Shown: one piece after another, positions 787 through 59,607 of the stretch
How the letters are laid out: each line of letters begins with the position of its first letter
Numbering within the stretch: the first letter of the stretch is position 1
Assembly (NCBI GenBank): GCA_051872765.1
Contig: JBJEED010000091.1
Span: forward strand, 17,878-81,877
Reading direction: 5' to 3'
From: Bacilli bacterium
GTDB lineage: Bacteria > Bacillota_I > Bacilli_A > RF39 > UBA660
DNA: 64,000 nt
The notes under the pieces: model-generated
Database searches by the model: none
What the model was told of the DNA's origin: nothing
What the model saw: only the letters and a program-made list of their open reading frames with translations
Position numbers and translations under genes: made by a program

Positions 787-909
787 TTATTTAGACAATT
801 CTTTTCTTCCTTTTGCTCTTCTTGATTTTAATACGTTTGTACCTTTTCTAGCAAAAAATCCAGATGTTTTACTTTTTTTACGATTATTTGGTTGAAATGT
901 TCTTTTCAT
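787..909 (-). CDS. rpmH: 50S ribosomal protein L34 (40 aa; not in the ORF track because it is shorter than the cutoff)
   Basis: Manual translation gives [40 protein letters not shown], the canonical L34 sequence. Confidence 0.9.
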
Positions 910-1005
910 AATTAACCTCCGTTTCTCTTTGACTGAAATAGATTATATTATAAGTTTTTTTAAAAGTCAACTTATTTAGGTTTAAAAATATGCTGTTTAA
1001 ATAAA

Positions 1006-4147: not shown

Positions 4148-4278
4148 ATCAACCAGTTATCAACAAACTAACAAATATAAAAAAATAGAAAACCCTGTTA
4201 ATAACTTAACATAAACTAGTTATCAACAATATCAACACTTAATAATAATATGATTTATATAAATAAGGAGGTAAAATT
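4148..4278. promoter_or_regulatory. dnaA-dnaN intergenic oriC segment with DnaA boxes
   Basis: TTATCAACA at about 4160-4168 and 4222-4230, plus TATCAACAC at 4232-4240, in AT-rich spacer. This is the typical Firmicute oriC/DUE location. Confidence 0.6.
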
Positions 4279-7229: not shown

Positions 7230-7233
7230 TATT

Positions 7234-9153
7234 ATGAATGAAGAATATGGCGTAAAAGATATACAAGTTTTAGAAGGATTAGAGGCAGTAAGAAAAAGAC
7301 CTGGTATGTATATAGGAACTACTGATGTAAAAGGGTTACATCATTTAGTCTGGGAAATTGTAGATAATTCTATTGATGAGGCCTTAGCAGGTTATTGTAA
7401 TAATATTGAAATAGTAATAAATAAAGATAATTCTATAACAGTAAAAGATAATGGTCGTGGTATTCCAGTTGGTATACATCCTCAAACCGGTATTTCTACA
7501 GTAGAAACAGTTTATACAGTGCTACATGCTGGTGGAAAATTTGGCGGTGGAGGATATAAAGTATCTGGTGGACTTCATGGTGTTGGTGCATCTGTTGTTA
7601 ATGCATTATCAAAATGGGTAACTGTAACAGTATATAAGGATAGTAAAATATATGAAACAAAATTTGAGAATGGTGGAAAAACTGTTCAAAAATTAACAGA
7701 GATTGGTGAATGCGAAAAAAATAGAACTGGAACAATAGTAACATTTAAGCCAGATGCAGATATATTTGATACTGATATTTATGATTATGAAACATTAAAA
7801 ACTAGAACAAGAGAATTAGCTTTTTTAAATAAAGGATTAAGACTTACATTAAGAGATGACAGAGATGAAGAAGATACACAAGGTGATATTTTCCTATATG
7901 AAGGTGGAATAAGTGAATATGTAAAATTTATTAATCAAGGAAAAACTGTTCTTCATGATAACGTAATACATTTAGAAGGAGAAAAAGATGGAATTCTGTT
8001 TGAGGTAGCACTTCAATATAATTCTGGGTATAATGAAAATATTTATTCTTTTGTAAATAACATTAATACTCATGATGGAGGAACTCATGAAGACGGAGTT
8101 AAAAGAGCTTTAGTAAGAGTAATAAATTCATATGCAAGAAAAAATAATATATTAAAAGATAAAGACGAAAATTTAAGAGAAGATGATGTTAAAGAAGGAA
8201 TTACTATGATAGTTTCTTGTAAACATCCAAACCCTCAATTTGAAGGTCAAACAAAAGGTAGACTAGGTAATTCAGAAGTTAAGAATCTTGCAGATAGTGT
8301 TTTTGCAGAAGGATTTGAACAATTTTTACTAGAAAATCCAGAAAATGCTAAAATTATTATAAATAAAGCTATATTAGCTAGAAATGCTAGAATGGCTGCT
8401 AAAAAAGCAAGAGAAGCTACAAGAAAAAGTGATCTTACTACAACAAATTTTTTTGGTAAATTATCTGATTGTAAAAGTAAAGATCCAACAGTATCTGAAA
8501 TATTTATTGTCGAGGGAGATTCTGCCGGTGGTTCAGCAAAAAAAGGTAGAGATTCAATGACACAAGCAATATTACCTTTAAGAGGTAAAATATTAAATGT
8601 TGAAAAAGCGAGACTTGATAGAGCACTTGGGAATGAAGAAATTAAAACTATTATAACCGCGTTTGGAACAGGAATTGGTGAATATTTTGATTTAAGTAAA
8701 CTAAGATATGACAAAATAATAATTATGACCGATGCTGATGTTGATGGTGCTCACATTAGAGTATTATTATTAACATTATTTTATAGATTTTTTAAACCTA
8801 TAGTACAAGCAGGACATATTTATGCCGCTCAACCACCATTATTTAGAATTATGCATGGTAAGACAAGAAAATATGCACTAGATGAAAAAGAAAAAGATGA
8901 ATATTTAGCTTCATTACCTGAAAATGTTAGAGCTAGGGCTGAAATTGCACGTATGAAAGGTTTAGGTGAAATGGATGCTGAAGAATTAAATGAGACTACA
9001 ATGGATATTAATAAAAGAGTTTTACGTAAAATAACAGTGGATGATTGTGTATTAGCTGACTCAATATTTGAAAAATTAATGGGCGATGAAGTAGAACCAA
9101 GACGTGCATTTATAGAAGAAAACGCAGAATTTGTTAAAAATTTAGATATATAG
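7234..9153 (+). CDS. gyrB: DNA gyrase subunit B
   Basis: GHKL ATPase, [25 protein letters not shown]; start at ATG 7234. Confidence 0.97.
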
Positions 9154-9160
9154 GAGGTTT

Positions 9161-11650
9161 ATGATGGAAGAAGAGATGAAACAAGAAAATGAATTTAGTG
9201 GAAGTTTTCATGAAAGAGATAGTCATGCTGTAAATAATATTGTAGATGAAGTAAAAAGTTCATTTTTAGATTATTCTATGAGTGTTATAACATCTAGAGC
9301 TATTCCTGATTTAAGAGATGGATTAAAACCTGTACACAGAAGAATTTTATGGTCAATGTATGAAGAGGGAAATACACCTGATAAACCTCATAGAAAATCT
9401 GCAACAACTGTAGGTAATGTTATGGGACATTATCATCCACATGGTGATAGTTCTATTTATGAGGCTATGGTTCGTTTAGCTCAAGATTTTAATCAAAGAT
9501 ATATGTTAGTAGATGGACATGGAAACTTTGGTAATATAGAAGGAGATGGAGCAGCAGCTTATCGTTATACAGAAGCAAGACTTGCTAAGATATCATTAGA
9601 ATTATTAAGAGATATTAATAAAGATACAGTTGATATGGACGATAACTTTGATGTTACTAGAAAAGAACCTAAAGTTTTACCATCTAGATTTCCAAATATA
9701 TTAGTAAATGGTTCTTTAGGTATAGCAGTTGGTATGGCAACAAACATACCACCTCATAATTTAGGTGAAGTAATTGATGGATGCATAGCATATATCGATA
9801 ATCCTGATATTGATACTTTAGGTTTAATGCAATATATAAAAGGTCCAGATTTTCCCACAGGAGGAATTATTCTTGGAAACTCCGGTATAAAGAAAGCATA
9901 TGACACGGGAAGAGGTAGTATTACTATTAGGAGCAAGGCTAGTATTGAAGAAATACATGGTCATAATTGTATAGTAATTACCGAAGTACCTTATGGTGTT
10001 AATACTTTAGAATTAAAAAATAAAGTAGCTGAATTAGTCCATAATAAAATAATAGATGGAATAACAGATTACCATACTGACTTAAAAGATGGAATTAAGA
10101 TTACAATTACTCTAAAAAAAGACGCAAATCCTCAAGTAGTATTAAATAATTTATATAAACATACATCTTTTCAAATTAATTATGGAATAATATTCTTAAT
10201 GTTAGATGGTCTTACTCCAAAAACATTAGGTTTAAAAGACATAATTTCTAAGTATATTGATCATCAAAAAGTGGTTATTATAAGAAGAACAAAATTCGAT
10301 TTAGCAAAAGATGAGAGAAGAGTACATATTTTAAATGGATATAAAATAGCTCAAGATAATATTGATGAGGTAATTAAAATTATTAAATCTGCTAAAACAG
10401 ATGAAATAGCTAAAACTAATTTAATGAATCGATTTGGTTTAGATACTATACAAGCTGAAGCAATATTGGAATTAAAACTAAGACGTTTAACTGGATTAGA
10501 AAGAGATAAAATAGAAGCAGAATTAGCAGAATTATTAAAAGAAATAGAAGAATTAAAATCTATTTTACAATCAGAACAAAAAGTTTTAGATATTATTAAA
10601 AAAGAAATGCTTGAAATTAGAAACAAATATAGTGATGATAGAAGAACTACAATAGATATGACAGCAGTAGAATACATAGAAGATGAAGCATTAATTCCTC
10701 AGGAAGAAGTAATGATTACTTTAACAAATAAAAATTATATTAAGAGAATTGCCAAAAATACTTATAAGTCTCAAAATCGTGGAGGTGTTGGCATAAAGGG
10801 TATAACAACAACAGAAGAGGATTTTGTTGAACATTTAATTTCTGTTAATACACATGATTATATTTTATTCTTCAGTAATAAAGGTAAAGTTTATAGACTA
10901 AAAGGTTATAATGTACCAGAATATTCAAGAGCAGGTAAAGGATTACCAATTATCAATCTATTACAATTAGAAAAAGATGAAAGAATTAATGCTATGGTTA
11001 AGGTAAATAACGAAGATATAAACAAATGTTTGCTTTTGAGTACTAAAAATGGTTTGGTTAAAAGAACAAAATATGAAGACTATATTAATATAAGACAAAC
11101 AGGTAAAATAGCAATTACATTAAAAGATGATGATGAATTAATTTCTGCTAAAGTAACTGAAGGAGATAGTCAAATTCTAATGTGTTCATCAAATGGTAGA
11201 ATGGTTAGATTTAATGAAAATGAAATTAGAATTATGGGTAGGACAGCTTCTGGAGTTAGAGGCATAAACTTGAATGGTGATATTTGTGTTGGTACAGAAA
11301 TATCTAAACCAGGAAATCTATTATTAGTAGTAACTGAAAATGGATATGGTAAAAAAACTGAAATAGAAGAATATAGAGAAACAAAGCGTGGCAGTAAAGG
11401 TGTAAAGACAATAAATTTATCTGAAAAAAATGGTAAAGTAGTAGGTTTCAAGTCAACTCAAAACGATAAAGACGTAATGATTATTACAAAGAATGGTATA
11501 ATAATTAGAATGGATGTTAATTCTATTTCACAAATGGGAAGAGTAACAAAAGGAGTTAAATTAATTAATCTTAAAGATAATAATAAAGTTGCTTCTATTT
11601 CAATTGTTGATAAAGAGATAGTAGAAGAAGTTGAAGAAAATGCAGAATAG
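9161..11650 (+). CDS. gyrA: DNA gyrase subunit A
   Basis: Active-site Tyr region AAYRYTEARL, QRDR HPHGDSSIYEAMV, C-terminal beta-pinwheel repeats. Confidence 0.97.
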   Translation: MMEEEMKQENEFSGSFHERDSHAVNNIVDEVKSSFLDYSMSVITSRAIPDLRDGLKPVHRRILWSMYEEGNTPDKPHRKSATTVGNVMGHYHPHGDSSIYEAMVRLAQDFNQRYMLVDGHGNFGNIEGDGAAAYRYTEARLAKISLELLRDINKDTVDMDDNFDVTRKEPKVLPSRFPNILVNGSLGIAVGMATNIPPHNLGEVIDGCIAYIDNPDIDTLGLMQYIKGPDFPTGGIILGNSGIKKAYDTGRGSITIRSKASIEEIHGHNCIVITEVPYGVNTLELKNKVAELVHNKIIDGITDYHTDLKDGIKITITLKKDANPQVVLNNLYKHTSFQINYGIIFLMLDGLTPKTLGLKDIISKYIDHQKVVIIRRTKFDLAKDERRVHILNGYKIAQDNIDEVIKIIKSAKTDEIAKTNLMNRFGLDTIQAEAILELKLRRLTGLERDKIEAELAELLKEIEELKSILQSEQKVLDIIKKEMLEIRNKYSDDRRTTIDMTAVEYIEDEALIPQEEVMITLTNKNYIKRIAKNTYKSQNRGGVGIKGITTTEEDFVEHLISVNTHDYILFFSNKGKVYRLKGYNVPEYSRAGKGLPIINLLQLEKDERINAMVKVNNEDINKCLLLSTKNGLVKRTKYEDYINIRQTGKIAITLKDDDELISAKVTEGDSQILMCSSNGRMVRFNENEIRIMGRTASGVRGINLNGDICVGTEISKPGNLLLVVTENGYGKKTEIEEYRETKRGSKGVKTINLSEKNGKVVGFKSTQNDKDVMIITKNGIIIRMDVNSISQMGRVTKGVKLINLKDNNKVASISIVDKEIVEEVEENAE

Positions 11651-12398: not shown

Positions 12399-12452
12399 AT
12401 ATTTTAAAAAAAATAATGATTGATTTTTTTTAAAATATAGTGTAATATATAT

Positions 12453-12525
12453 GCGTGCAACGAAAATGGTTTGAACCAGGTCAGAATCGGAAGATAGCAG
12501 CCTTAAAAAGCAAATTCGTGTGCAC
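12453..12525 (+). ncRNA. ffs: Small SRP RNA (4.5S/ffs-like)
   Basis: Conserved domain IV ACCAGGTCAGAATCGGAAGATAGCAGCC (E. coli 4.5S has ACCAGGUCAGGUCCGGAAGGAAGCAGCC). The 5' and 3' ends pair (GTGCAACGAA / TTCGTGTGCAC). Followed by a T-run. Lies next to tadA and dnaX as in Bacillus. Confidence 0.6.
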
Positions 12526-12545
12526 TTTTTTTATTAGGAGATATT

Positions 12546-25402: not shown

Positions 25403-25527
25403 ATCAATTCTTTTTTTATGTAAATGCATAAAAAATCTAATAATAAAAAAGTAAATGATTTTAAAATTCAATATTGTATTTTAATTTAAAATTTTGTATA
25501 CTAATATAGAGAATACTATAAAGGGAA

Positions 25528-27423
25528 GTGGTTTATGTGATAGACTCATATTTTGCAAGTATTGGATTTACATTAAGTGGTTTATTATTTATGCTTACAG
25601 TATTTGTAATGTTTGTATCAAAAAAGAAAGAAAATAATGAAGAAAGTCGAATATTTTTTTATCTATTAATAATTACAATATTACTATTATTTTTAGAGTT
25701 TGCAACTAGTTATACAATTTCCAAAATAGATGAGTTAACATTATTAAATACTATTTTAGGCAGATTATATATCGTTCTTATATATCTTTGGGCAGGAGGA
25801 TTTTTATTATATATTACAACCTTACTACTTAATAATGAAGAAAAATATAAAAATAAAAATAAGAAAAAGTTTTTTACTATTTATATAATCGTATCTATTA
25901 TTGTAGCAATTCTTATGTCTATTATATTTAAAGTAGAGTATTCTAATGGTATGAATGGAACACCTTATGTTATAGGTGGAACAGCTATCACTATATTAAA
26001 TATATTAATTATTTTTGGAGGATTTTTATTAATAACAATTTTATCAAGTTATAAAAATATTATAAAGAATATTTGGATGACTCCTATTTATATAATAATA
26101 TTGGCTTTTATATTGATTACTTTACTTCAAACATTCTTTAATTATCAAATAAATGATACAGTATTATTTTTCTCGCTAATAATTGAAACTTTATATTTTA
26201 CAATTGAAAGTCAAGATAATAAATTATTAGAAGAATATAAAAAATCAAAAGAAGATGCAGAAATAGCTAATAAAGCAAAAACAGAGTTTTTGATTAATAT
26301 GTCACATGAAATCAGAACCCCAATGAATACAATTTTAGGATTTAGTGAATCTTTATTAAAAGATCCTGTACTTGTTGAAGAGACAGTTAAGAATGATTTA
26401 AAAAGTATTAATTCTGCAAGTTCAACTTTAATGGACTTAATTAACAATATATTAGATATATCAAGACTTGAAGCTGGTGAAGAAGTATTAAATGATTCTG
26501 AGTATAATTTAGAGACATTAATATTTGAAATTAATAGTTTAATTCCAGCAAAGATAGAAAAAGAAGAATTAAAATTTACTATTGAAATTAATGAAAGTAT
26601 ACCTAAAGGTTATTATGGTGATGCTTACAAATTAATTAAGATTTTATGCTATGTATTAAGAAATGCAATTGATTATACCAATTATGGAGAAATTAAACTT
26701 AATGTTGATGGTAAAAAAGTAGATGCACAAAACTTTGAATTTTGTTTCTTAGTTTCAAATACAGGTCATGCAATGACTCAAGAAAGTTTCAATATGGATT
26801 TTGCGGATTATGTAAAAATTGAAAATGCATCACAAAAAAATAATGTAAAAACTATTAATCTTGGGTTAATTATAGCAAAACAATTAACTGAGTTAATGGG
26901 CGGTGAAATTGAATTTGTTAATGAAAGAGGACATGGAACTAGATACTTTATTAGAATAAAGCAAAAAATAACTAATGAAGAAAAAATAGGAAATATATTT
27001 GAAAGTAATGCTGGACATGTTTCTAGTAGTAGAGATATATTAAATTGTGAAGGTAAGAAAGTTTTAATAGTTGATGATAGTGAAATAAATTTAAAACTAG
27101 CATCAAGGTATATGAGTCAATTTAATTTTACTGTTACTACTGCGACAAATGGAAAAGATTGTGTTGAATATATTAAAAATAATAATTATGATATAGTATT
27201 TATAGATCATATGATGCCAGATATGGATGGTGTTCAAACTGTTAAAGCTATGGAAGCAACTGGTAAAAAATTGCCACCAATAATTGCTCTAACAGCAAAT
27301 GGATATAAAGGTCTAAAAGAAAGATTTGTTTCAGAAGGTTTCACAGATTATCTTCAAAAACCACTTAATTTTAGAGATTTAAATAAATTAATCAATAGAA
27401 TATTTGGTCAAAATGGTAATTAG
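25528..27423 (+). CDS. Orphan hybrid sensor histidine kinase (polytopic N-term, HisKA, HATPase_c, C-terminal receiver)
   Basis: H-box [16 protein letters not shown]-box GLGLIIAKQ, receiver [12 protein letters not shown]...[14 protein letters not shown]. Confidence 0.8.
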
Positions 27424-27441
27424 GAAGGGAGTGAAATTAAG

Positions 27442-29283
27442 ATGACATTTGAATTAATATTAACTGAAGGTACAGTTGCATTTATACTATTATTATTAAT
27501 GATGTATTTTAAAAAACAAACCTTCAAAAACTTAAAGACATTTATGTTTAAATTATTATTAATATTTAGTTTATCCTTTTCTGCTTTTGAAATAATATCT
27601 GTATTATTGTTAGATGTAATAGATTCTAATTTAATAAATACTATTATATGGAAATTTCACTTTGTGATTAGCATGTTATTTAATTTAGTATTCTGCTATT
27701 ACATATTAAGTGCTTTATCTGAAGAAGAGAAAAAATCTTTTAAAGAACTTTTTACAGCTAGTTTAATATCTAAAATTGTATCTGTAATAATATTTATTAT
27801 CATAATAGGATATATTGTTTTGCCAATAGATAATATAAATCCAGAAACATTAAATTTTATTCCAAACTATAGTATATATTTTTATATAGCATGTGTATTA
27901 ATCGCATTAATTGTAACAATGATTACTTTGTCAAAAACAAAGAAAAAGATTTCTAAAAATAAAAAGCCTTATTATATTTATGCTACTATTATTCCTTTAG
28001 TTTTTATACCATTGCAAATAATATTTACTCAGGTTTCATTTTTACCTTTTGCATTAATATTACAATTATATGATTTATATTTCTTCATTGAAAATCCAGA
28101 TTTAGAAATCTTAGAAGAAATAACAACAGCACAAGGAGATATTGAACAATCTAATCAAACAAAAACAGATTTCTTATCTAATATGACATCTGAAATAAAA
28201 GTTCCAATGAATCTAATTGTTAGTTTATGTGATGAATTGACTAGTATGCCAGTATTTAATGAGAAACTTGTTAGAGAAGATATTTCACAAATATATACAT
28301 CAGGTAATAGTTTATTAGACATAGTAAATAATATATTAGATATATCTAAAATTGAAACAGGTAAAGGAACGCTTCAAGAAAGAGATTATAAAGTTAATAA
28401 TTTGTTAACTGATGTAATTAATATTGCTAAATCAAAAATTGGTGCTAAACAAGTAAAATTAATGGTCAATGTTGATCAAAATATATCATCTGTATTAAAT
28501 GGTGACTATTCTAAACTTTATCAGGCTTTGACAAATATAGTCACAAATGCTGCTAAATTCACGGATGTTGGTAAAATTACTTTTACATTAACTAGTACAA
28601 AAGCATCAAATGTCGAGAATCTATTATTTAAAATCAGTGATACTGGTTCAGGTATTAAAGAAGAAGAACAGGCAATGTTATTTCAAAAAGGTGTTAGACT
28701 TGCAAATGCTAAGCAAAGTGAGATTGAAGGTAGTGGTTTAGGACTAGCTATAACAAAAGAATATATTGAACTTTTGGGTGGTAAAATATGGTTTGATAGT
28801 CAATACAGAGTTGGTACTACTTTTTATATTGAAGTTCCACAAAAAATAGTTGATTCAACACCAGTAGGTGCAGCAAAAGAGAAAAAACAAACTACTGAAA
28901 AGCTTGATTGTTCTAAGTATACAGTGCTTATTGTAGATGATAATAACTTAAATATTAAAGTTGCAAAAAGACTTCTTGAAACTTACAAGTTTAAAGTTGA
29001 AAGTGTTACTTCTGGTAAAGATTGTGTTTATAAAATAAAGGAAGGAACACATTACGATGCAATATTCATGGATCATATGATGCCTGAGATGGATGGTATT
29101 GAAACATTACATGTACTTAAGAAATTAAATGGTTATGAATTACCTCCTATTATTGCATTAACTGCAAATGCAGTTGCAGGTATGAGAGAAATGTATCTAA
29201 GTGAAGGGTTTGATGAATATTTATCAAAACCAATAAATACTACTGACTTAGATAGAATAATTAATGAATTATTTAACAAATAA
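27442..29283 (+). CDS. Second orphan hybrid sensor histidine kinase, paralogous to the upstream gene
   Basis: Same architecture; receiver VLIVDDNNLNIKVA...AIFMDHMMPEMDG. Confidence 0.8.
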   Translation: MTFELILTEGTVAFILLLLMMYFKKQTFKNLKTFMFKLLLIFSLSFSAFEIISVLLLDVIDSNLINTIIWKFHFVISMLFNLVFCYYILSALSEEEKKSFKELFTASLISKIVSVIIFIIIIGYIVLPIDNINPETLNFIPNYSIYFYIACVLIALIVTMITLSKTKKKISKNKKPYYIYATIIPLVFIPLQIIFTQVSFLPFALILQLYDLYFFIENPDLEILEEITTAQGDIEQSNQTKTDFLSNMTSEIKVPMNLIVSLCDELTSMPVFNEKLVREDISQIYTSGNSLLDIVNNILDISKIETGKGTLQERDYKVNNLLTDVINIAKSKIGAKQVKLMVNVDQNISSVLNGDYSKLYQALTNIVTNAAKFTDVGKITFTLTSTKASNVENLLFKISDTGSGIKEEEQAMLFQKGVRLANAKQSEIEGSGLGLAITKEYIELLGGKIWFDSQYRVGTTFYIEVPQKIVDSTPVGAAKEKKQTTEKLDCSKYTVLIVDDNNLNIKVAKRLLETYKFKVESVTSGKDCVYKIKEGTHYDAIFMDHMMPEMDGIETLHVLKKLNGYELPPIIALTANAVAGMREMYLSEGFDEYLSKPINTTDLDRIINELFNK

Positions 29284-30180: not shown

Positions 30181-30396
30181 TTGAATATTGAACAAATAAA
30201 AAATAAGTTAAAAAATTTTGGTAAATCTAAAATTAAAATAAAAGTAAATCTAGGTCGTAATAAGTATGAGTATTATGAGGGATATATAAATAAGATGCAT
30301 CCTAATATTTTTGTTGTTGAAACTAATAAAGGAATAAAATCTTTTTCTTATTCTGATGTAGTTATTAAAAATGTAATATTAACTAAATTTAATTAA
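30181..30396 (+). CDS. veg: Veg (biofilm-stimulating small protein), TTG start
   Basis: 71 aa; NLGRNKYEYYEGYINKMHPNIFVVE...FSYSDVV matches the Veg consensus. Confidence 0.85.
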   Translation: MNIEQIKNKLKNFGKSKIKIKVNLGRNKYEYYEGYINKMHPNIFVVETNKGIKSFSYSDVVIKNVILTKFN

Positions 30397-30668: not shown

Positions 30669-31232
30669 ATGAAAAAGCAAAGAAACACACAAATGCTGGT
30701 TATTGCAGTCTTAGCAATTGCGGTATTGACAATGTCAGTAGGTTTTGCGGCATTTACTCAAAGATTAGATATTAATAGTAATACTACAGTTGGTGTGTCA
30801 ACTTGGAATGTTAAATTTTTAACTGATAGTTTCACAGTAACTGATGGAAGCGTTAATGTAGATAGTGGTAACATAGTAATTACAGGTACATCTGTCACAT
30901 ATGAGGTTAAGTTATCTAAGCCTGGAGATTTTTATGAATTTACTATTAATGTTAAAAATTCAGGTACATTTAATGCTAACTTAGTTGGAATTACTTTAAG
31001 TTCTTTAACTGAGGCACAATCTAAATATTTAACTCACAAATTAACATATGATGGTGTAGAGTATACTCAAACAACATCTGGATTATCAAAAACATTAAAT
31101 GCAACTGATGGTGTTGCTAGTGTTAAAGTTCGTGTGGAATATGTTGCACCAGAAGATCCAAATGATTTACCACAGGAAGAAGTTCGTATACCTTTAACTG
31201 CATCTCTTTCATATGAACAAAAACCTGATTAG
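30669..31232 (+). CDS. TasA/camelysin-like secreted protein with SipW-cognate signal peptide
   Basis: N-terminus ...LTMSVGFAAFTQ matches the SipW-cognate class (TasA ...GGGTWAAFND); KLSKPGDFYEFTINVKNSG parallels TasA NLKPGD...FQFENNGS. A TTGACT-17-TATAAT promoter lies at about 30580-30608. Confidence 0.6.
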   Translation: MKKQRNTQMLVIAVLAIAVLTMSVGFAAFTQRLDINSNTTVGVSTWNVKFLTDSFTVTDGSVNVDSGNIVITGTSVTYEVKLSKPGDFYEFTINVKNSGTFNANLVGITLSSLTEAQSKYLTHKLTYDGVEYTQTTSGLSKTLNATDGVASVKVRVEYVAPEDPNDLPQEEVRIPLTASLSYEQKPD

Positions 31233-31286: not shown

Positions 31287-32414
31287 GTGGGTAAAAATAT
31301 GAAAAAAAATATATTGACATTTTATATATGTAATATAATAATTATAGCCTTAATTGTATTATTTAATAATAAGAATTATAGTATTCTATTATGGATTTTA
31401 TTAACTATCTTTTTATTTTTTAAGTGTGGTTTTCCTAAAGATAAAAATTATTTAAAATATAATACAATTCAAATTGTAATAATTAGTATATTCTCATATT
31501 TTTTAATTACTTATAGTCTTGGTTTAATTACGGGATTTAGTAAAAATTTTTTTGATTTAAATATTAAATCGATTATTATGAATATGCTATATCCTTTTAC
31601 TTTGATTACTTGTCAAGAACTTATTCGATATATTTATGCTAAAAATTGTGTAGATGATATAAAGCCATATATTATGCTTACTTTAGTATATATTTTTTTA
31701 GAAATTTTTACTCAAGTTAATGGATATAATTTTTACAATTTTGAAATATTGTTTAAGTTTATATGTTTAGTAGTATTAAAAAGTATTTCTCATGAAATTC
31801 TATATAGTTATATTACTTATAAGATTAGTTTTATACCTACATTAATTATGAAACTAACATTTGGTTTATATATATACATTATACCTATATTTCCAAATTT
31901 AGGAGAATATTTAATGTCTCTTTTTGGAATATTATATCCGGCTTTGGTTTATGTAATGATATATAAAACTATTCAATCTTATGATAAAAGTAGTAAATAT
32001 GTGACTTCAATAAAGAAAAAATATTTGCTATATCCTGTAATTTTATTTTTATGCATAATTGCAGTACTTACATCAGGTATTGGAAAATATCAAATGATTG
32101 CAATTGGATCTGGTAGTATGGAACCAATATATAAGCGTGGTGATGCGGTAATCTTTACTAAGATAAAATCACTTGAAGAAGTGAAAATTGGTTCCATTAT
32201 AGCATTTACTAAAAATAATATACTAATAACACACAGAGTGGTAAATATTGAATATAAAAATGGTGATTATCAATTTATCACAAAAGGGGATAATAATAAA
32301 GATATTGACATTGGAACTGTTAGTGGCAGTAATGTTAAAGGAATTGTGATACATAAGATTCCTTATATTGGATATCCAACAATATGGATTAATGAAAAAC
32401 TAGGTAATATATAA
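31287..32414 (+). CDS. sipW: SipW-type (ER/archaeal-type) signal peptidase I fused to an approximately 250-aa N-terminal polytopic membrane domain
   Basis: C-terminal catalytic domain has IGSGSMEP (catalytic Ser), ITHRV (His) and KGDNN. The N-terminal half has about 7 predicted TM helices. Confidence 0.7.
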   Translation: MGKNMKKNILTFYICNIIIIALIVLFNNKNYSILLWILLTIFLFFKCGFPKDKNYLKYNTIQIVIISIFSYFLITYSLGLITGFSKNFFDLNIKSIIMNMLYPFTLITCQELIRYIYAKNCVDDIKPYIMLTLVYIFLEIFTQVNGYNFYNFEILFKFICLVVLKSISHEILYSYITYKISFIPTLIMKLTFGLYIYIIPIFPNLGEYLMSLFGILYPALVYVMIYKTIQSYDKSSKYVTSIKKKYLLYPVILFLCIIAVLTSGIGKYQMIAIGSGSMEPIYKRGDAVIFTKIKSLEEVKIGSIIAFTKNNILITHRVVNIEYKNGDYQFITKGDNNKDIDIGTVSGSNVKGIVIHKIPYIGYPTIWINEKLGNI

Positions 32415-32436: not shown

Positions 32437-33522
32437 ATGAAAAATGATGATAATTCTTTGTTTATGAGAAAAATTTATTATTTACTCATTGTTTTTTCAA
32501 TTATCATTTTAAGTATATGCTCTTATTTTTATATAAGAATGGGATTAGATAATAAGGTAAAAAATGTTTTAGATTACGAAAGTAGTAGTGATATAAATTA
32601 TAAAGTATATTTAAAGAAAAATAACTTTTTTAATGAAGAATATTTAACTATGAATAAAACTTATATTGCAAGTTTAATTGATCATTTAGATGTTATTTTT
32701 ACATATAATCTTAAATATAGTGAACTTGTATCTGGAAAGTATAATTATTATGTAAAAGCTACTATTTTAGCTGATAAAGATGCATCTAGTAATACAAATT
32801 ATTGGTCTAAATCTTATATTTTAACAGAACCAGAAACTATTGAATTTAGTAAAATTAATAATTATAATATCACCACTAGCGTAATAGTTGATTATCAGAA
32901 ATATAGTGATTTGCTTAAAGAATTTAGAAAAGAATATGGATTATCTATCACTGGTTTATTAAAATTAGAACTTATTGTTGAAAGTGAGACAAAAAGTGAG
33001 TCTATTGAAAATGTTGCTAATATAAATTCTTCTTCTGAATTAACTATTCCTCTTACTGAGCAAGCAATTGAATTATCTATTAATGCTGAAAATGATAGTA
33101 ATTCTGGAAGCATAGTAGAAGAGGTTGTATTAGATAATATTAAATATAAAATATTTTTAGTGCTTGGTACTATTTTAGGAATTTTAGCAATCATATTACT
33201 TGGAATATTTATTTACGAATTAATAATGTTATATCAAAGTAAAAGTAAATATTCGATAGAACTTAAAAAAATAATGTCTTCATATGATAGTATAATTGTA
33301 AATGTTAGTAGTATGCCTAATTTTACTAAATATAAAGTTATTAACGTACTTTCATTTGATGAGTTAATTGATGCTCATAGTGAAGTAAGAATGCCAATTA
33401 ATTATTATGAAGAGAAGCCTGGATGTAAAAGTGTTTTTGTACTTATTAATGGTGATATTGTCTGGATGTATACATTGTTAGATGAAAATTATAGAAAAAG
33501 AATTTTAAAAAAGAAGTCATAA
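32437..33522 (+). CDS. Hypothetical bitopic membrane protein in the matrix operon
   Basis: TM at the N-terminus and near residue 235; no family recognised. Confidence 0.45.
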   Translation: MKNDDNSLFMRKIYYLLIVFSIIILSICSYFYIRMGLDNKVKNVLDYESSSDINYKVYLKKNNFFNEEYLTMNKTYIASLIDHLDVIFTYNLKYSELVSGKYNYYVKATILADKDASSNTNYWSKSYILTEPETIEFSKINNYNITTSVIVDYQKYSDLLKEFRKEYGLSITGLLKLELIVESETKSESIENVANINSSSELTIPLTEQAIELSINAENDSNSGSIVEEVVLDNIKYKIFLVLGTILGILAIILLGIFIYELIMLYQSKSKYSIELKKIMSSYDSIIVNVSSMPNFTKYKVINVLSFDELIDAHSEVRMPINYYEEKPGCKSVFVLINGDIVWMYTLLDENYRKRILKKKS

Positions 33523-33560: not shown

Positions 33561-35900
33561 ATGTTAAAAAATCGAAATGTTATTATATATATATTTGTTT
33601 TACTAATTATTTCTTTTATGAGTGTAGGGTATGCATACTATGGACAATTGCTAGAGTTTTCTGGAAATATTAATTTAAAGCCAGATGGTAAATTTCGTAT
33701 AGATAATATAATACTTACGGATACTTCTAATGTTATAAGTAGTGTTCCACCAATTATTACAGATAATACAATTGAGTTTAATATAAGCTTTGGTGGTACT
33801 GAAAATGAGTATTATGCAATATATACAGCTGACTTCATAAATGAAAGTAGCTATAGTTATACATATAATTCTTTTAATTTTACGCCAATTGTTACCGCGA
33901 GTGGTGATGGAAGTGGACAATTATCTTTTGAAGTTAGTAATATTAATGATGGAGATGTAATTTCTCCTGGAGAGATTTTAACGATTACGTTAAAATTGAT
34001 TTTAGATGTAAGTGATTCTGAACAAACATATGATATAAATGCCAAGAGTGATGTTATATTGAATTATAATGAAAAAGGTTCTATTTTTACTAGTGTATCA
34101 CCATTATCTGTAGATTTAACTGGTACTAATGAATTAGCTTTAATTAATTTAGAGGTTATGAACACATATGGTAGAAATATTACTTTTAATATGAAATCTA
34201 GTAATAATAATTTTTCTTTAGTAAATAGTGATGGAACAGATTTAGGAAGTTTTACTATTTTAGCAAATAGTGTAGATGATTATCAAATATATTTGAAAAA
34301 GACAGATAATAGCGTGTTTTATGATTCTTCTGAGACTACAATATTAATATTACAATGTGGTACTTTAGGAAACTATAATACTAGTAAGATAACAGTTTCT
34401 GTTGATAAGTCAGAGTTAAGTGATACTAGTATTCCTGAAATTGGTGAAATTAGTTTTACTATAAATAATAATGAAGGACAGGCTGATCTTAATTGGAGTA
34501 GATTAGATAGTGGGGGCACTAGTATTATTGGTTATACAATATTACTTTATAATTCTACGAATGATACCTTAGTAAATACTTATAATACTAATAGTGACTT
34601 GACAAGTTATAGTATTACAGGTCTTGAAGAAGGAAGTTATTATGTTAAAATATATGGAACAGATCAAGCTGGAAATAATGGAAGTGGATATGTAAATGAT
34701 GCTACAACTAGTACAATTTATTGTCGTCAATCTTCTACTGTTGCTTTAAAATGGATATTTAATGTTACTAATAATTTAACTTATTTGACTTCTTCAGGTG
34801 CTAGTACTGCTTCATTAGGAAGTACATATACTGCAACATTATCGGTTTCAGGAAATGTAAGTTTGCCAACTTCTATTACAGTTACTATGAATGGTGTTAC
34901 ACTAGTAAATGGTACAGATTATACATATAGTAGTAGTACAGGACAAATATCTATTCCTAATGTAAATGGAGATATTACCATTACAGCTAGAGGAAGTGGC
35001 GTATGTTTAATTGAAGGAACAAAGATTAGTTTAGCTGATGGAAGTACTAAAAACATTGAAAATATAAGATATGATGATTTACTTCTTGTTTGGAGTTATG
35101 AAGAGGGGCGTATGGTATATGAATATCCTATTTGGATAGAAAAAGAACATAAAGCGCAATCTTATCAATTAACAAAATTCTCATCAGGAGATGAGTTAAA
35201 AACAATAGGATATCATGGCATATATAATATGGACCTTAATAGATTTGTTTCAGTTGATAATAGAGAAGAATTTGATGTTGGTACTAATGTTGCTATTATG
35301 AATGATGATAAAACAGGTTTTATATCTACTAGTGTAGTTAGTATAGAATATGTGTATGAAGAAGTAAATTATTATCATGTGGTTTCAACTAGATATTATA
35401 ATATAATTGCTAATAATATTTTAACAACTGATGGAACAGTAATATTATCTAATTTATATGGATTTGATGATAACATTATGTGGTTAAATAGAAATCAAGT
35501 AATTAATGATAAAAATAATCTTTATGATTATATAGAATTTAATGATATAATGCCATATTATATGTTTTCTGGCCTTAGAGCTAGTGAAGGTAAGTATTTA
35601 GCTAATTTAGGTTTTTTGAGTAAAGAAACATTTAAATATTATTTACTTCAAAATCAAATGAATAAAGAAATGTTGTTACCGCCAACTGTAAATAAAAATG
35701 GTATAAGACAATGGGTTGTAAAAACAAGTTTAGGATATGAAAGATTAATAGATGAGGGAAGTTATTTTTATTTAGATAATTCAAATACTTTAGGTAAAAA
35801 GATTTTATATTGGTATGATATGTCTACAGGAGTAAAATACAAACCTAATGAAAGAGTTAAAATATGGTATGGTACTTATTTTGAGGCTATATATGAATAA
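33561..35900 (+). CDS. Large secreted protein: SipW-cognate signal/TasA-like N-terminus, Fn3 domain, internal Hint (intein-like) domain
   Basis: N-terminus ...FMSVGYAYYGQ...NLKPDG; Fn3-like LNWSRLDSGGTSIIGYTILLYN...YYVKIYGTD; Hint block A CLIEGTKISLADGSTKNIENI...DLLLV at residue 482 and block F-like YYNIIANNILTTDG (about nt 35004-35435). Confidence 0.6.
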   Translation: MLKNRNVIIYIFVLLIISFMSVGYAYYGQLLEFSGNINLKPDGKFRIDNIILTDTSNVISSVPPIITDNTIEFNISFGGTENEYYAIYTADFINESSYSYTYNSFNFTPIVTASGDGSGQLSFEVSNINDGDVISPGEILTITLKLILDVSDSEQTYDINAKSDVILNYNEKGSIFTSVSPLSVDLTGTNELALINLEVMNTYGRNITFNMKSSNNNFSLVNSDGTDLGSFTILANSVDDYQIYLKKTDNSVFYDSSETTILILQCGTLGNYNTSKITVSVDKSELSDTSIPEIGEISFTINNNEGQADLNWSRLDSGGTSIIGYTILLYNSTNDTLVNTYNTNSDLTSYSITGLEEGSYYVKIYGTDQAGNNGSGYVNDATTSTIYCRQSSTVALKWIFNVTNNLTYLTSSGASTASLGSTYTATLSVSGNVSLPTSITVTMNGVTLVNGTDYTYSSSTGQISIPNVNGDITITARGSGVCLIEGTKISLADGSTKNIENIRYDDLLLVWSYEEGRMVYEYPIWIEKEHKAQSYQLTKFSSGDELKTIGYHGIYNMDLNRFVSVDNREEFDVGTNVAIMNDDKTGFISTSVVSIEYVYEEVNYYHVVSTRYYNIIANNILTTDGTVILSNLYGFDDNIMWLNRNQVINDKNNLYDYIEFNDIMPYYMFSGLRASEGKYLANLGFLSKETFKYYLLQNQMNKEMLLPPTVNKNGIRQWVVKTSLGYERLIDEGSYFYLDNSNTLGKKILYWYDMSTGVKYKPNERVKIWYGTYFEAIYE

Positions 35901-36034: not shown

Positions 36035-36313
36035 ATGAAAATTACATCAGTAAAAATTCGTAAAGTTGAGAGAGAAGGATCTCGTATGAAAGGTATTGCT
36101 TCTGTAGTAGTTGATGATGCAATTGCTATTCATGATATTAGAATTATTGAAGGCGATAATGGATTATTTATTGCTATGCCTAGTCGTAAAACACCAGTAG
36201 GTGAATATAAGGATATAGCTCATCCAATTAACCAAGAAGTAAGAACTATGTTTGAAAAAGAAATACTTGATGCATATAACAAATCAGACGAAGTTCAAGA
36301 AAACGAGGAATAA
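36035..36313 (+). CDS. spoVG: Septation protein SpoVG
   Basis: MKITSVKIRKVEREGSRMKGIASVVVDDAIAIHDIRIIEG is canonical SpoVG. Confidence 0.92.
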   Translation: MKITSVKIRKVEREGSRMKGIASVVVDDAIAIHDIRIIEGDNGLFIAMPSRKTPVGEYKDIAHPINQEVRTMFEKEILDAYNKSDEVQENEE

Positions 36314-59533: not shown

Positions 59534-59607
59534 GGAGCCATAGCCAAGTGGTAAGGCACAGGTCTGCAACACCTTCATCGTCGGTTCAAATCCGACTGGC
59601 TCCTCCA
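59534..59607 (+). tRNA. tRNA-Cys (anticodon GCA)
   Basis: Acceptor stem GGAGCC/GGCTCC, D-arm AGCCAAGTGGTAAGGC, anticodon loop CTGCAAC, T-arm GGTTCAAATCC, encoded CCA. Preceded by the hairpin 59504-59529 and followed by a terminator at about 59626-59656. Confidence 0.85.

What the first reader, a model, noticed from the sequence alone, without database searches (positions are those of the whole stretch)
33561..35900. Matrix protein with an internal Hint (intein-like) autoprocessing domain after TasA-like and Fn3 modules
Residues 482-625 (nt 35004-35435) begin with the intein/Hedgehog block A signature (C-L-I-E-G-T-K-I-x-L-A-D-G-S...I-E-N-I...D-x-L-L-V) and end with a block F-like YYNIIANNILTTDG. 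The terminal His-Asn plus nucleophile of true inteins is absent. This matches bacterial intein-like (BIL) domains, which catalyse N-terminal cleavage or ligation rather than splicing. Placed after a SipW-cognate TasA-like N-terminus and an Fn3 domain, it suggests a matrix subunit that autoproteolyses or covalently attaches itself post-secretion.
Basis: partly seen in the sequence, partly recalled or inferred. Interest (0 to 1): 0.6.

Follow-up and report, generated by a model that had tools for sequence, protein, structure and literature searches.

The report
Hedgehog-like self-cleaving tail on fibre protein
A secreted fibre-associated protein of an uncultured gut bacterium ends in a genuine intein/Hedgehog-type self-processing domain plus a conserved tail, and this same unannotated C-terminal module sits on thousands of surface proteins in related small-genome bacteria, so it may be a new way to cut or covalently attach surface proteins without sortase.

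Summary
ORF 33561-35900 (779 aa) holds a true Hint-fold domain at residues 482-624. Single-sequence Pfam/NCBIfam hits are sub-threshold. A family profile matches the BIL2 bacterial-intein-like domain (E=1e-5). A confident AlphaFold model (pLDDT 92) matches BIL2, Hedgehog HhC, mini-inteins and the C. thermocellum BIL by Foldseek (E down to 3e-9, probability 1.0).

Across 280 unique copies, Cys482 and the block-B His552 never vary. The intein terminal Asn is absent (Asp in 78%) and no +1 nucleophile is conserved. Only the thioester-forming N-terminal chemistry is constrained.

First, the Hint plus an ~80-aa helical region and an optional beta-grasp form a portable C-terminal module. It has 4,347 cluster representatives on LRR, Listeria-Bacteroides-repeat, DUF285, pilin-like, lipoprotein and subtilase proteins of gut/rumen Bacilli and 'Tenericutes' MAGs. 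Second, the gene is the fourth member of a conserved cassette: small subunit, multi-TM SipW-type peptidase, DUF5305, Hint protein.

Best reading: a Hog-like autoprocessing module that cleaves at Val481|Cys482 and probably transfers the passenger to an acceptor. Plain hydrolysis is the main rival. 'TasA-like' is not shown by sequence. This is a new variant of a known kind.

The parts
30669..31232 (+). Gene 1 of the cassette: small secreted subunit (187 aa), one N-terminal hydrophobic segment ending in '...MSVGFAAF', then a beta-rich domain
   Evidence: ORF; a single TM-like segment at residues 6-31. 55 homologs lie in the same position in other loci. Only weak sequence hints exist: DUF11 in 12/20 members, AbpX PDB chains at E=0.23-0.29. 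No TasA or SipW-cognate NCBIfam model hit.
31287..32414 (+). Gene 2: SipW/archaeal-type signal peptidase I (375 aa) with a polytopic N-terminal membrane domain
   Evidence: TIGR02228 sigpep_I_arch scores 91.6 bits (cutoff 51.85) on residues 248-373. The SipW Bacillus model scores 66.7 bits, below its cutoff of 190. A crude hydropathy scan finds about 8-10 hydrophobic segments in residues 5-273. The AbpX preprint describes a 10-TM dedicated SPase I in such loci.
32437..33522 (+). Gene 3: DUF5305 membrane protein (361 aa), proposed in the literature to be an SPase I accessory subunit
   Evidence: PF17231 E=4.8e-17, 62.6 bits (cutoff 29). Two hydrophobic segments at 7-37 and 234-268. Its role is proposed in 10.64898/2026.01.04.697558 and PMC11821415.
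33561..35900 (+). Gene 4: the 779-aa Hint-bearing large subunit (whole ORF including stop)
   Evidence: It is 100% identical to NCBI 'MAG: hypothetical protein ACI33S_06750 [Bacilli bacterium]'.
33561..33887 (+). Residues 1-109: signal peptide ('...FMSVGYA', Gly23 invariant) plus an N-terminal strand and the start of a beta-sandwich homologous to the small subunit
   Evidence: hhalign of the small-subunit profile against the family profile gives probability 96.8%, E=2.3e-10 over about 109 columns. BLASTP gives E=3e-5. Invariant G23 and near-invariant A25 and Y27. The cleavage site after Ala25 is inferred by analogy with TasA and was not tested.
34428..34703 (+). Residues ~290-381: fibronectin type III domain
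   Evidence: PDB fibronectin/titin hits over 286-381. PF00041 in 8/27 members, best E=3.5e-6.
34749..34994 (+). Residues ~397-478: Ig-like 'LPxSITVTMGG...GDITITA' domain directly before the cleavage site
   Evidence: The same unit is repeated in tandem in P0060 (seven matches, up to 44% identity) and precedes the Hint in P0061.
35004..35432 (+). Residues 482-624: Hint-fold autoprocessing domain. Cys482 is nt 35004-35006, block-B His552 is nt 35214-35216, and the block G-like strand ends in Thr-Thr-Asp624.
   Evidence: profile and fold. Conservation: Cys 258/258, His 269/269, Asp624 210/268. Codons.
35433..35675 (+). Residues 625-~705: conserved linker ('GTVILSNLYGF') and helical region, the constant partner of the Hint
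   Evidence: Helices at model residues 155-225. 11-13 module variants end naturally just after this region. N631, Y633, F635, R673 and E676 are highly conserved. No Pfam, PDB-sequence or significant fold match. The linker has pLDDT 81-93 when modelled with the Hint but 58-73 when modelled alone.
35706..35897 (+). Residues ~716-779: terminal beta-rich domain, probably a beta-grasp of the Listeria-Bacteroides repeat (Flg_new / InlB B-repeat) type; optional in the wider family
   Evidence: Strands at model residues 244-306. Weak Foldseek hits to the InlB B-repeat 2y5p (probability 0.82) and to ubiquitin-like folds, none significant. Flg_new in 1/27 members at E=0.0043. Absent from 11-13 variants.

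Best explanation
The 779-aa protein is the large accessory subunit of a four-gene secreted-fibre cassette: small subunit, dedicated multi-TM SipW-type signal peptidase, DUF5305 accessory protein, large subunit. The cassette belongs to the TasA/AbpX/Tafi locus class.

Residues 482-779 form a Hedgehog-'Hog'-like C-terminal module. It has a Hint domain (482-624), an ~80-residue helical region that packs against the Hint, and an optional beta-grasp domain.

Proposed steps:
1. Sec export and removal of the N-terminal signal by the cassette peptidase (inferred).
2. The subunit-like N-terminus joins the fibre (inferred from homology to the small subunit).
3. The Hint catalyses an N-to-S acyl shift at Val481-Cys482, assisted by His552, which converts the peptide bond into a thioester. 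This is inferred from absolute conservation of exactly these residues and from the established chemistry of Hint domains.
4. A nucleophile resolves the thioester. This detaches the Hint+tail and leaves the passenger (residues ~26-481) ending at Val481.

I consider transfer to a specific acceptor most likely. The acceptor could be a cell-envelope amine or hydroxyl, or a lysine of another subunit, with the conserved tail acting as the acceptor-recognition region. That would be sortase-independent covalent attachment, as in Hedgehog cholesteroylation or BIL2 isopeptide formation.

Estimated likelihoods: steps 3-4 (cleavage at Cys482 through a thioester) about 0.85; resolution by transfer rather than by water about 0.45-0.5. 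The confidence given for this explanation (0.45) refers to the full statement including transfer.
For: - Hint fold and family profile.
- Catalytic pattern over 280 unique copies: Cys482 258/258 and His552 269/269. The intein-specific positions are relaxed: Asp624 78%, +1 Gly 58%. No splicing is possible, and selection acts only on the thioester step.
- The closest solved relative, BIL2, transfers its N-terminal flank onto a lysine to form an isopeptide bond.
- Module behaviour: 4,347 representatives. In 168 of 178 full-length matches the module ends within 10 residues of the C-terminus. The hosts are typical surface or adhesin proteins (LRR_5/BspA, Flg_new, DUF285, fn3, subtilase, pilin-like) with several kinds of export signal.
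- A conserved extra region always accompanies the Hint. Plain hydrolysis would not need one. Hedgehog needs its SRR for sterol transfer.
- The tail linker is ordered only in the presence of the Hint (pLDDT 81-93 versus 58-73).
- The cassette is co-linear in 55-66 of the 83 loci held, with unrelated flanks.
- In published bacterial AbpX loci the accessory protein that joins the fibril carries an LPXTG or SLH wall anchor. Here the only C-terminal module available is Hint+tail.
- Natural Hint-less paralogs stop at the predicted cleavage point. The passenger is therefore a self-sufficient unit ending there.
Against: - No biochemical evidence of cleavage exists. Everything after the fold assignment is inference.
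- The acceptor is unknown and the tail has no recognisable binding fold.
- Some hosts already have an N-terminal lipobox or TM anchor, so anchoring cannot be the only role of the module.
- A cassette can function with only a Hint-less large subunit (L084), so the module is not essential to the fibre system.
- The block-B Thr is not conserved: Thr in 155 of about 269 copies.
- Absence of sortase in these genomes was not tested.
- The TasA-superfamily nature of the small subunit is not demonstrated.
Confidence: 0.45

Rival explanations
1. Self-cleaving pro-domain or release switch. The same thioester forms at Cys482 but is simply hydrolysed. The Hint+tail acts as a temporary C-terminal domain that is shed after export. 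It could hold the protein at the cell surface through non-covalent binding, or block premature assembly. The passenger is left with a free C-terminus.
For: - The catalytic conservation is the same as for the best explanation.
- Type B BILs are reported to perform only cleavage.
- Hint-less paralogs ending at the junction exist and presumably function with a free C-terminus.
- Hosts that already have N-terminal anchors would gain a release or maturation step rather than an anchor.
- The terminal beta-grasp resembles the InlB B-repeat, which occurs in surface-associated proteins.
Against: - Hydrolysis alone does not explain why an ~80-aa helical region is kept with the Hint in nearly all copies and packs against it.
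- The closest solved relative performs transfer, not hydrolysis.
Confidence: 0.33
2. Catalytically silent structural module. The Hint fold and tail serve only as a non-covalent cell-surface binding or spacer domain and no bond is broken.
For: - No Hint-clan Pfam model reaches threshold.
- The block-B Thr and the block-F Asp equivalents are not conserved: position 606 is His, Asn or Phe.
- The tail ends in a repeat type common in surface proteins.
Against: - An inactive scaffold would not keep Cys1 in 258/258 and the block-B His in 269/269 copies while overall identity falls to 35-50%.
- Hint-less paralogs end precisely at the Cys.
Confidence: 0.07
3. Polymorphic-toxin arrangement (pre-toxin Hint). 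The Hint releases the C-terminal 155 residues as a toxin or effector.
For: Hint domains placed before C-terminal toxin domains are a known bacterial arrangement (polymorphic toxin literature listed). The tail has no known fold.
Against: - PF07591 is not among the listed families that members match.
- The tail is conserved, not polymorphic: 53% mean column identity, and the same tail sits on all host classes.
- The genes downstream differ between loci and none recurs as an immunity candidate: spoVG here, ABC transporter, YkuD and CitMHS genes elsewhere.
- C-terminal cleavage chemistry is not conserved: Asp624 78%, and no Asn.
Confidence: 0.03
4. Degenerate true intein: a former mobile intein that decayed inside a host gene.
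For: The N-terminal motif 'CLIEGTKI' and the block F/G-like 'YYNIIANNILTT' resemble mini-inteins. The best structural TM-scores are to RecA/DnaB mini-inteins.
Against: - There is no terminal Asn, no penultimate His, no +1 nucleophile and no endonuclease domain.
- The Hint travels with its downstream tail as one unit on unrelated hosts, almost always at the C-terminus.
- Hint-less paralogs lack the tail too, so the flanks are not two halves of one host protein.
- Strong purifying selection acts on Cys and His over thousands of copies.
Confidence: 0.02

Closest known systems
BIL2 of the Tetrahymena thermophila BUBL1 polyubiquitin-like locus (PDB 6Y75/6TMM), a bacterial-intein-like domain
   Same: It is the best sequence-profile hit (E=1e-5, whole domain) and the best Foldseek hit (E=2.9e-9, TM 0.79). 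It starts with Cys, has the block-B His, and has no +1 nucleophile for splicing. It resolves its thioester by transfer of the N-terminal flank to an amine, giving a Lys isopeptide.
   Different: Identity is only 18%. BIL2 is eukaryotic, cytoplasmic, flanked by ubiquitin-like domains, and keeps a C-terminal Asn (the crystallised mutant is N143A). Here the context is secreted bacterial surface proteins, the terminal residue is mostly Asp, and a dedicated helical tail follows.
Hedgehog / Hog autoprocessing domain (Hint + sterol/adduct recognition region), PDB 1AT0
   Same: The layout is the same: passenger, then Hint, then a short conserved C-terminal region at the very end of a secreted protein. 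The fold matches at E=3.5e-8, TM 0.77. Only N-terminal thioester chemistry is present and there is no splicing. Unrelated passengers share one C-terminal module, as in nematode warthog/groundhog proteins.
   Different: No significant sequence relationship was found. PF01079 is matched by only 6/27 members with best E=0.0026, below cutoff, and hhalign to HhC failed. The tail is longer and ends in a beta-grasp. The adduct, if any, is unknown. These are bacteria, not eukaryotes.
Bacterial intein-like domains types A and B (Amitai et al. 2003, as summarised in PMC4031507)
   Same: It is a bacterial Hint domain in secreted, variable proteins that lacks the +1 nucleophile. Cleavage or ligation is expected instead of canonical splicing. 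The C. thermocellum BIL structure 2LWY matches at E=1.6e-7, TM 0.83.
   Different: Type A is defined by a C-terminal His-Asn, which is absent here. Type B is defined by lack of block G similarity, whereas this family keeps a block G-like hydrophobic strand ('NNILTTD') without the catalytic pair. No published BIL type is described with this helical + beta-grasp tail or in SipW/DUF5305 cassettes.
TasA / AbpA / AbpX / Tafi donor-strand fibre loci with dedicated signal peptidase and DUF5305
   Same: The gene set matches: small secreted subunit, SipW/archaeal-type SPase I with many TM helices, DUF5305 accessory protein, and a large accessory protein whose N-terminus resembles the subunit.
   Different: The described loci use SLH or LPXTG anchors, or unrelated tip proteins. 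None is reported with a Hint domain. Sequence membership of this small subunit in the TasA superfamily is not established.
Sortase/LPXTG sorting (and other C-terminal sorting modules such as the T9SS CTD)
   Same: It is a C-terminal module on many unrelated surface proteins. The module is removed while an activated acyl (thioester) intermediate at the new C-terminus can be passed to an envelope or pilin amine. This comparison is functional only and rests on established knowledge of sortase chemistry.
   Different: Here the thioester would form within the protein itself by its own Hint domain, so no separate transpeptidase is needed. There is no homology. Transfer is not demonstrated.

Membership tests
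Hint superfamily (Hedgehog/intein fold) | Hint fold (horseshoe-like beta structure with pseudo-twofold symmetry) | tested here: met
   The AF2 model has pLDDT 92.2. Foldseek against PDB gives 63 hits at E<=1e-3, and the 50 listed hits are all Hint-fold proteins with TM 0.77-0.86 to mini-inteins, HhC and BILs.
Hint superfamily (Hedgehog/intein fold) | N-terminal Cys/Ser nucleophile (block A) and block-B His | tested here: met
   Cys482 in 258/258 and His552 in 269/269 aligned unique copies. The block-B Thr is only partly conserved (155 Thr; Val/Ile/Phe otherwise).
Hint-clan Pfam/NCBIfam models (PF01079, PF05203, PF14890, PF07591, TIGR01445) | Score at or above the curated gathering cutoff | tested here: not met
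   For the query, Hom_end_hint scores 13.3 bits (cutoff 32.1) and TIGR01445 scores 14 bits (cutoff 24.5). Across 27 members, Hom_end_hint is matched by 16, Hint by 6 and Intein_splicing by 3, all with weak E-values. PF07591 is not among the 25 of 30 matched families that were listed.
Class 1 (splicing) intein | C-terminal Asn (usually His-Asn) and Cys/Ser/Thr at +1 | tested here: not met
   The domain ends Thr-Thr-Asp|Gly. Position 624 is Asp in 210/268 copies, and none of the six commonest residues there is Asn. Position +1 is Gly/Ala/Asp/Pro/Glu.
Class 1 (splicing) intein | Inserted within a host protein whose two flanks form one functional protein | tested here: not met
   The Hint and its downstream tail move together onto unrelated hosts. 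Hint-less paralogs lack the tail as well.
BIL type A | C-terminal His-Asn with no +1 nucleophile (PMC4031507) | tested here: not met
   There is no His-Asn. The lack of a +1 nucleophile is shared.
BIL type B | No similarity to intein block G; cleavage only (PMC4031507) | tested here: inconclusive
   A block G-like strand aligns with 'NGVLAH' of BIL2 but lacks the catalytic residues. No type-B model or reference sequences were available in the tools.
Hog domain (Hedgehog-type Hint + SRR/ARR) | Hint directly followed by a short conserved C-terminal adduct-recognition region at the end of a secreted protein | tested here: met
   Hint + ~80-aa helical region in about 97% of instances, ending the protein. 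This meets the architecture criterion only.
Hog domain (Hedgehog-type Hint + SRR/ARR) | Sequence homology to Hedgehog HhC, and transfer of a sterol or other adduct | tested here: inconclusive
   PF01079 is below cutoff. Adduct transfer cannot be tested with these tools.
Pre-toxin Hint of polymorphic toxin systems | Variable C-terminal toxin domain after the Hint, with an adjacent immunity gene | tested here: not met
   The tail is conserved across hosts. The downstream genes are unrelated between loci.
TasA superfamily fibre locus (TasA/AbpA/AbpX/Tafi) | Dedicated SipW/archaeal-type signal peptidase I and DUF5305 accessory gene next to the subunit gene | tested here: met
   TIGR02228 at 91.6 bits, above its cutoff of 51.85. 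PF17231 at 62.6 bits, above its cutoff of 29. Conserved synteny. Literature.
TasA superfamily fibre locus (TasA/AbpA/AbpX/Tafi) | Subunit with the TasA-type jelly-roll fold and an N-terminal donor strand | tested here: inconclusive
   Only sub-threshold hits: AbpX chains at E=0.23-0.29 and Peptidase_M73 in 1/20 members at E=0.027. No TasA or SipW-cognate NCBIfam hit.
Fibronectin type III domain | Match to PF00041 or to solved Fn3 domains | tested here: met
   PF00041 in 8/27 members, best E=3.5e-6. The family profile hits titin Fn3 arrays at E=1.4e-22 and single Fn3 domains at 3e-5.
Listeria-Bacteroides repeat (Flg_new / InlB B-repeat) | Match of the terminal ~65 residues to PF09479 or to the InlB B-repeat fold | tested here: inconclusive
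   PF09479 in 1/27 members at E=0.0043. Foldseek gives 2y5p at probability 0.82 but E=0.18.

The most novel reading that the evidence does not exclude
The Hint + helical-tail module is a sortase-independent covalent sorting system, a bacterial counterpart of Hedgehog processing. Each surface protein or fibre subunit carries its own single-use transferase. The transferase converts the passenger's last peptide bond into a thioester and hands the passenger to a specific envelope acceptor: a membrane lipid, a peptidoglycan amine, or a lysine of the neighbouring subunit. In this cassette that would tether or cross-link a TasA/AbpX-class fibre. The module would then be a major unrecognised surface-display mechanism in small-genome gut Bacilli/'Tenericutes'.
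Probability: 0.35. Interest if true: 0.85.

Novelty: new variant of a known kind. Interest (0 to 1): 0.62.

Why it matters
Hint domains are known from inteins, Hedgehog proteins, BILs and pre-toxin modules. A Hog-like arrangement (Hint plus a dedicated C-terminal region ending the protein) used as a general C-terminal module of bacterial surface proteins is not described in the literature I could search. It is also not captured by any Pfam or NCBIfam model at threshold, and the three NCBI-named copies are all called 'hypothetical protein'.

The module is abundant, with thousands of 50%-identity clusters, in poorly understood uncultured gut and rumen Bacilli with very small genomes. If it transfers its passenger to an acceptor, it would be a new route for covalent surface display and for anchoring or cross-linking TasA-class biofilm fibres. 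It would also be a compact, self-contained protein-ligation tool.

Even if it only hydrolyses, it defines a new large autoprocessing family. It also gives a concrete, easily testable handle (C482A, H552A) on how these fibre cassettes mature.

Tried and rejected
1. Single-sequence Pfam/NCBIfam scans gave only marginal Hint hits and could not decide the question. The family profile and the structure did.
2. I asked whether passenger homologs carry another sorting module in place of Hint+tail. P0210's precomputed Por_Secre_tail hit is spurious: it is internal, below cutoff, and the protein has the full Hint+tail. No LPXTG- or SLH-ended homolog turned up, only Hint-less ones.
It remains a lead only. 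Glu527 is 86% conserved.
4. Lys497 is invariant (261/261), so I considered it as a possible internal nucleophile. I set this aside because a basic residue at this block-A position is common in ordinary inteins. That point comes from my own recollection of intein sequences and was not tested.
6. NCBIfam and Pfam scans of the small-subunit family for TasA, camelysin or SipW-cognate models found nothing significant.
7. The promoter/terminator scan of the cassette found no more sites than chance in this 23% GC DNA.
8. No other copy of the module and no LPXTG-like C-terminus is present among the window's ORFs.
Full report
**1. The observation**

The quoted motifs are present at the stated coordinates.
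- Cys482 is nt 35004-35006, in SGV-CLIEGTKISLADGS.
- His552 is nt 35214-35216, in TIGYHGIY.
- YYNIIANNILTTDG ends at Asp624-Gly625, nt 35430-35435.

Alone, the sequence gives only marginal profile hits: Hom_end_hint E=0.085 and TIGR01445 intein_Nterm E=0.075, both far below the curated cutoffs.

**2. Is it a Hint domain?**

The protein is 100% identical to an NCBI MAG 'Bacilli bacterium' hypothetical protein. It belongs to a family of about 60 clusters of ~780-aa proteins, none with a precomputed Hint annotation.

In an alignment of 27 members, Cys482, Leu483, Gly486, Thr487 and His552 are invariant and Leu-Thr-Thr-Asp624 is nearly so. Sixteen of the 27 members individually touch Hom_end_hint, six touch the Hedgehog Hint model and three touch Intein_splicing. 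PF07591 is not among the 25 of 30 matched families that were listed.

A profile of residues 473-779 from 25 members matches PDB chains 6Y75/6TMM at E=1e-5 across the entire domain. Weaker hits are bona fide inteins. 6Y75/6TMM is BIL2, the intein-like domain of the Tetrahymena BUBL locus. BIL2 forms a lysine isopeptide bond with its N-terminal flank instead of splicing.

An AlphaFold2 model of residues 473-779 is confident, with mean pLDDT 92.2 and pTM 0.89. Foldseek against the PDB returns 63 matches at E<=1e-3, and all 50 listed hits are Hint-fold proteins:
- BIL2 at 2.9e-9.
- A CDC21 intein.
- The Hedgehog autoprocessing domain 1AT0 at 3.5e-8.
- RecA and DnaB mini-inteins at TM 0.83-0.86.
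- The C. thermocellum BIL 2LWY at 1.6e-7.

**3. Which chemistry is conserved?**

I collected 280 unique copies of the region from the protein searches and from 80 reference-genome loci.
- Cys482 is Cys in 258/258 copies.
- His552 is His in 269/269 copies.
- Lys497 is Lys in 261/261 copies and Asp506 is Asp in 260/261.
- Asn614 is Asn in 260/268 copies.
- The residue at the intein terminal-Asn position is Asp in only 210/268 copies (Tyr, Thr, Glu or Ser otherwise).
- The +1 residue is Gly in 58% of copies and is never a conserved nucleophile.
- The penultimate His is replaced by Thr.
- The block-B Thr is Thr in only 155 copies.

Selection therefore holds exactly the pair needed for the N-to-S acyl shift at the N-terminal junction. 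It does not hold the residues needed for Asn cyclisation or for branch formation. By the published definitions, type A BILs end in His-Asn and can splice, and type B BILs lack block G similarity and only cleave. This domain is not a splicing intein and not a type A BIL. It works like a type B BIL or a Hedgehog Hint.

**4. The Hint is the head of a portable C-terminal module**

An exhaustive profile search with the Hint+tail alignment found many relatives:
- 4,347 cluster representatives at E<=1e-3.
- 2,896 at E<=1e-10.
- 250 at E<=1e-30.

Among the full-length matches I hold, the module ends within 10 residues of the protein C-terminus in 168 of 178. The host proteins range from about 500 to 2,470 aa and are of unrelated kinds:
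- BspA-type LRR proteins.
- Listeria-Bacteroides repeat proteins.
- DUF285 repeat proteins.
- Fn3-containing proteins.
- A subtilase.
- Proteins with a prokaryotic N-methylation (type IV pilin-like) motif.

Their N-termini include SipW-type signals, classical TasA/camelysin-like 'AYFTD' signals, pilin-like 'KGFTLIELL' leaders, lipoboxes and plain TM anchors.

Module anatomy, from 185 copies that include the Hint start:
- 165 copies carry Hint + helical region + terminal beta domain.
- 11-13 copies end naturally just after the helical region, including one on a 285-kb contig.
- Hint-only ends are rare.

The constant partner of the Hint is therefore the ~80-residue helical region, residues 625-~705 here.

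The tail has no Pfam or PDB-sequence match. A separate model of it is confident (pLDDT 87.8) but has no significant structural neighbour. The only coherent weak signal is beta-grasp / InlB B-repeat for the last ~65 residues, in line with one weak Flg_new hit. The linker 'GTVILSNLYGF' is well ordered when modelled with the Hint (pLDDT 81-93) but poorly ordered alone (58-73), which suggests it packs on the Hint.

Passenger, then Hint, then a short conserved terminal region is the 'Hog' architecture of Hedgehog and Hedgehog-related proteins, where the terminal region recognises the adduct.

**5. The genomic setting**

The gene is the last of four tightly spaced same-strand genes, with gaps of 54, 22 and 38 nt.
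- A 187-aa secreted subunit.
- A 375-aa signal peptidase I. Its catalytic domain passes the archaeal/SipW-type model TIGR02228 (91.6 bits, cutoff 51.85). It has a polytopic N-terminal domain.
- A DUF5305 protein (62.6 bits, cutoff 29).
- The Hint protein.

The same four genes, in the same order, flank divergent family members in unrelated contexts.

The small-subunit profile and the first ~110 residues of the Hint protein are homologous (hhalign probability 96.8%, E=2.3e-10). The large protein therefore begins like a subunit.

DUF5305 appears in the literature only in papers on archaeal Tat-fimbriae, bundling pili and the AbpX branch of the TasA superfamily. Those loci combine a subunit, a dedicated SPase I (ten TM helices in AbpX loci), DUF5305 as a proposed SPase accessory protein, and variable tip, minor or anchor proteins. 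In bacteria the anchors carry SLH or LPXTG signals and are predicted to join the fibril by donor-strand complementation. None of these papers mentions a Hint or intein-like domain, and no paper in the library links intein-like domains with TasA.

Direct sequence evidence that this small subunit belongs to the TasA superfamily is lacking:
- AbpX chains match only at E=0.23-0.29.
- DUF11 is matched by 12 of 20 members.
- Peptidase_M73 is matched by 1 of 20 members.
- No TasA or SipW-cognate NCBIfam hit was found.

'TasA-like' is therefore a statement about locus class, not a shown homology.

**6. Natural Hint-less variants**

A search with the passenger alone (residues 1-481) found two family members that stop where the Hint would begin.
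- In L084 the 528-aa protein ends '...SITARGTRSNSGGGCG' and an opposite-strand gene starts 12 nt later.
- In L085 a 498-aa copy ends just after the Ig-like domain. It is followed by a full 800-aa paralog with Hint+tail.

So the passenger is a self-sufficient unit that ends at the predicted cleavage point. The tail never occurs without the Hint in these paralogs. That argues against an intein inserted into a continuous host protein.

**7. Mechanism**

Shown:
- The fold.
- The conserved Cys/His pair.
- The absence of splicing residues.
- The C-terminal modular behaviour.
- The cassette.

Inferred from the established chemistry of Hint domains:
- After export, the Val481-Cys482 peptide bond rearranges to a thioester.
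- A nucleophile then resolves it, separating the passenger from Hint+tail.

I put about 0.85 on this.

I lean towards transfer to a specific acceptor (about 0.45-0.5) for four reasons:
- A conserved extra region always accompanies the Hint.
- The nearest solved relative is a transferase-like BIL.
- The hosts are surface proteins of the kind that usually carry sorting signals.
- In this cassette the large subunit occupies the place held by LPXTG/SLH anchors in described loci.

The main rival is simple hydrolysis, meaning a shed pro-domain or release switch (about 0.33). It is favoured by the Hint-less variants and by hosts that already have N-terminal anchors. A silent structural role, a pre-toxin Hint and a decayed intein are each unlikely, for the reasons given under the rivals.

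**8. Organisms**

The module-bearing genomes are almost all uncultured gut, rumen or digester MAGs. They are labelled Bacilli, Tenericutes, Mycoplasmatota, Mollicutes or Erysipelotrichaceae, or named Candidatus Aphodocola or Candidatus Ventrenecus. One closed chromosome is 1.34 Mb. A few contigs carry Bacteroides, Muribaculaceae, Acidaminococcus or Saccharibacteria labels. I regard these as probable binning errors but did not test them.

The window itself is origin-proximal and about 23% GC. It holds dnaA, dnaN, gyrB, gyrA and mfd. The cassette sits between yabG/veg and spoVG/yabP/yabQ.

**9. Novelty and verdict**

The Hint fold and its chemistry are known. What is new, as far as these tools and the searchable literature show, is threefold:
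- This large unannotated subfamily.
- Its Hog-like pairing with a helical and beta-grasp tail as a general C-terminal module of bacterial surface proteins.
- Its recruitment into SipW/DUF5305 fibre cassettes.

I rate it a new variant of a known kind, with interest 0.62.

Noticed in passing
window 25522-27420 and 27424-29280 (+): Two tandem hybrid histidine kinase / response-regulator genes (HisKA + HATPase_c + Response_reg) lie just upstream of yabG, veg and the fibre cassette. The AbpX preprint notes that such fibre loci are often next to histidine kinases. A regulatory link was not examined.
   Followed up: no
window 30181-30396 (veg) to 36035-36313 (spoVG): In this genome the four-gene cassette sits between veg and spoVG in an otherwise typical Firmicute origin-proximal block: yabG, veg ... 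spoVG, yabP, yabQ, divIC-like, tilS, ftsH. In other genomes the same cassette has quite different neighbours. It therefore behaves as an independently placed unit.
   Followed up: partly
L085 6001-7497 and 7556-9958; L084 3826-5412: These are natural Hint-less versions of the large subunit. L085 has a 498-aa Hint-less copy directly followed by a full 800-aa copy with Hint+tail. In L084 the only large subunit ends '...GGGCG', one residue after the aligned Cys, with an lgt gene on the other strand 12 nt later.
   Followed up: yes
proteins P0067, P0077, P0094, P0097, P0118, P0124: Proteins with a type IV pilin-like N-terminus ('KKGFTLIELLAV...'; PF07963 N_methyl in P0094) also end in the Hint+tail module. 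So do proteins with classical TasA/camelysin-like 'AYFTD' N-termini (P0059, P0123, P0141, P0144). The module is thus found on candidate subunits of at least three filament types.
   Followed up: partly
window 1-4200: The window starts at the replication origin region. GC skew changes sign near position 2000. dnaA (2714-4144), dnaN (4267-5394), gyrB (7216-9150) and gyrA (9146-11647) follow. A 485-aa ORF on the minus strand (1009-2463) has no Pfam match at E<=1e-5.
   Followed up: no
window 12444-12540 (+) and 59534-59607 (+): Small bacterial SRP RNA (Rfam RF00169, 52.1 bits) and a single tRNA-Cys(GCA). These are the only RNA families at gathering score in the window.
   Followed up: no
loci L012, L013, L016, L021, L031, L045, L047, L057, L062, L079, L081: Contigs carrying the cassette are labelled Bacteroides helcogenes, Bacteroidaceae, Muribaculaceae, Acidaminococcus fermentans or Candidatus Saccharibacteria. 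Yet they encode proteins 37-56% identical to the Bacilli ones (the best segment of the Hint+tail match) in the same gene order. This probably reflects MAG mis-binning or mislabelling rather than true cross-phylum spread.
   Followed up: no
protein P0060 (838 aa) and window 34749-34994: The Ig-like domain just before the Hint ('LPxSITVTMGG...YTYD..TG.I.I..VTGDI.I.A') matches P0060 at seven places (32-44% identity) and has no Pfam model at threshold. It appears to be an undescribed bacterial Ig-like repeat family.
   Followed up: partly
protein P0063 (596 aa): This is a distant homolog of the first ~288 residues of the large subunit, with the same 'FMSVGYA' signal. It continues into an unrelated C-terminal region with no Hint. 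The subunit-like N-terminal part is thus also combined with other C-terminal regions.
   Followed up: no
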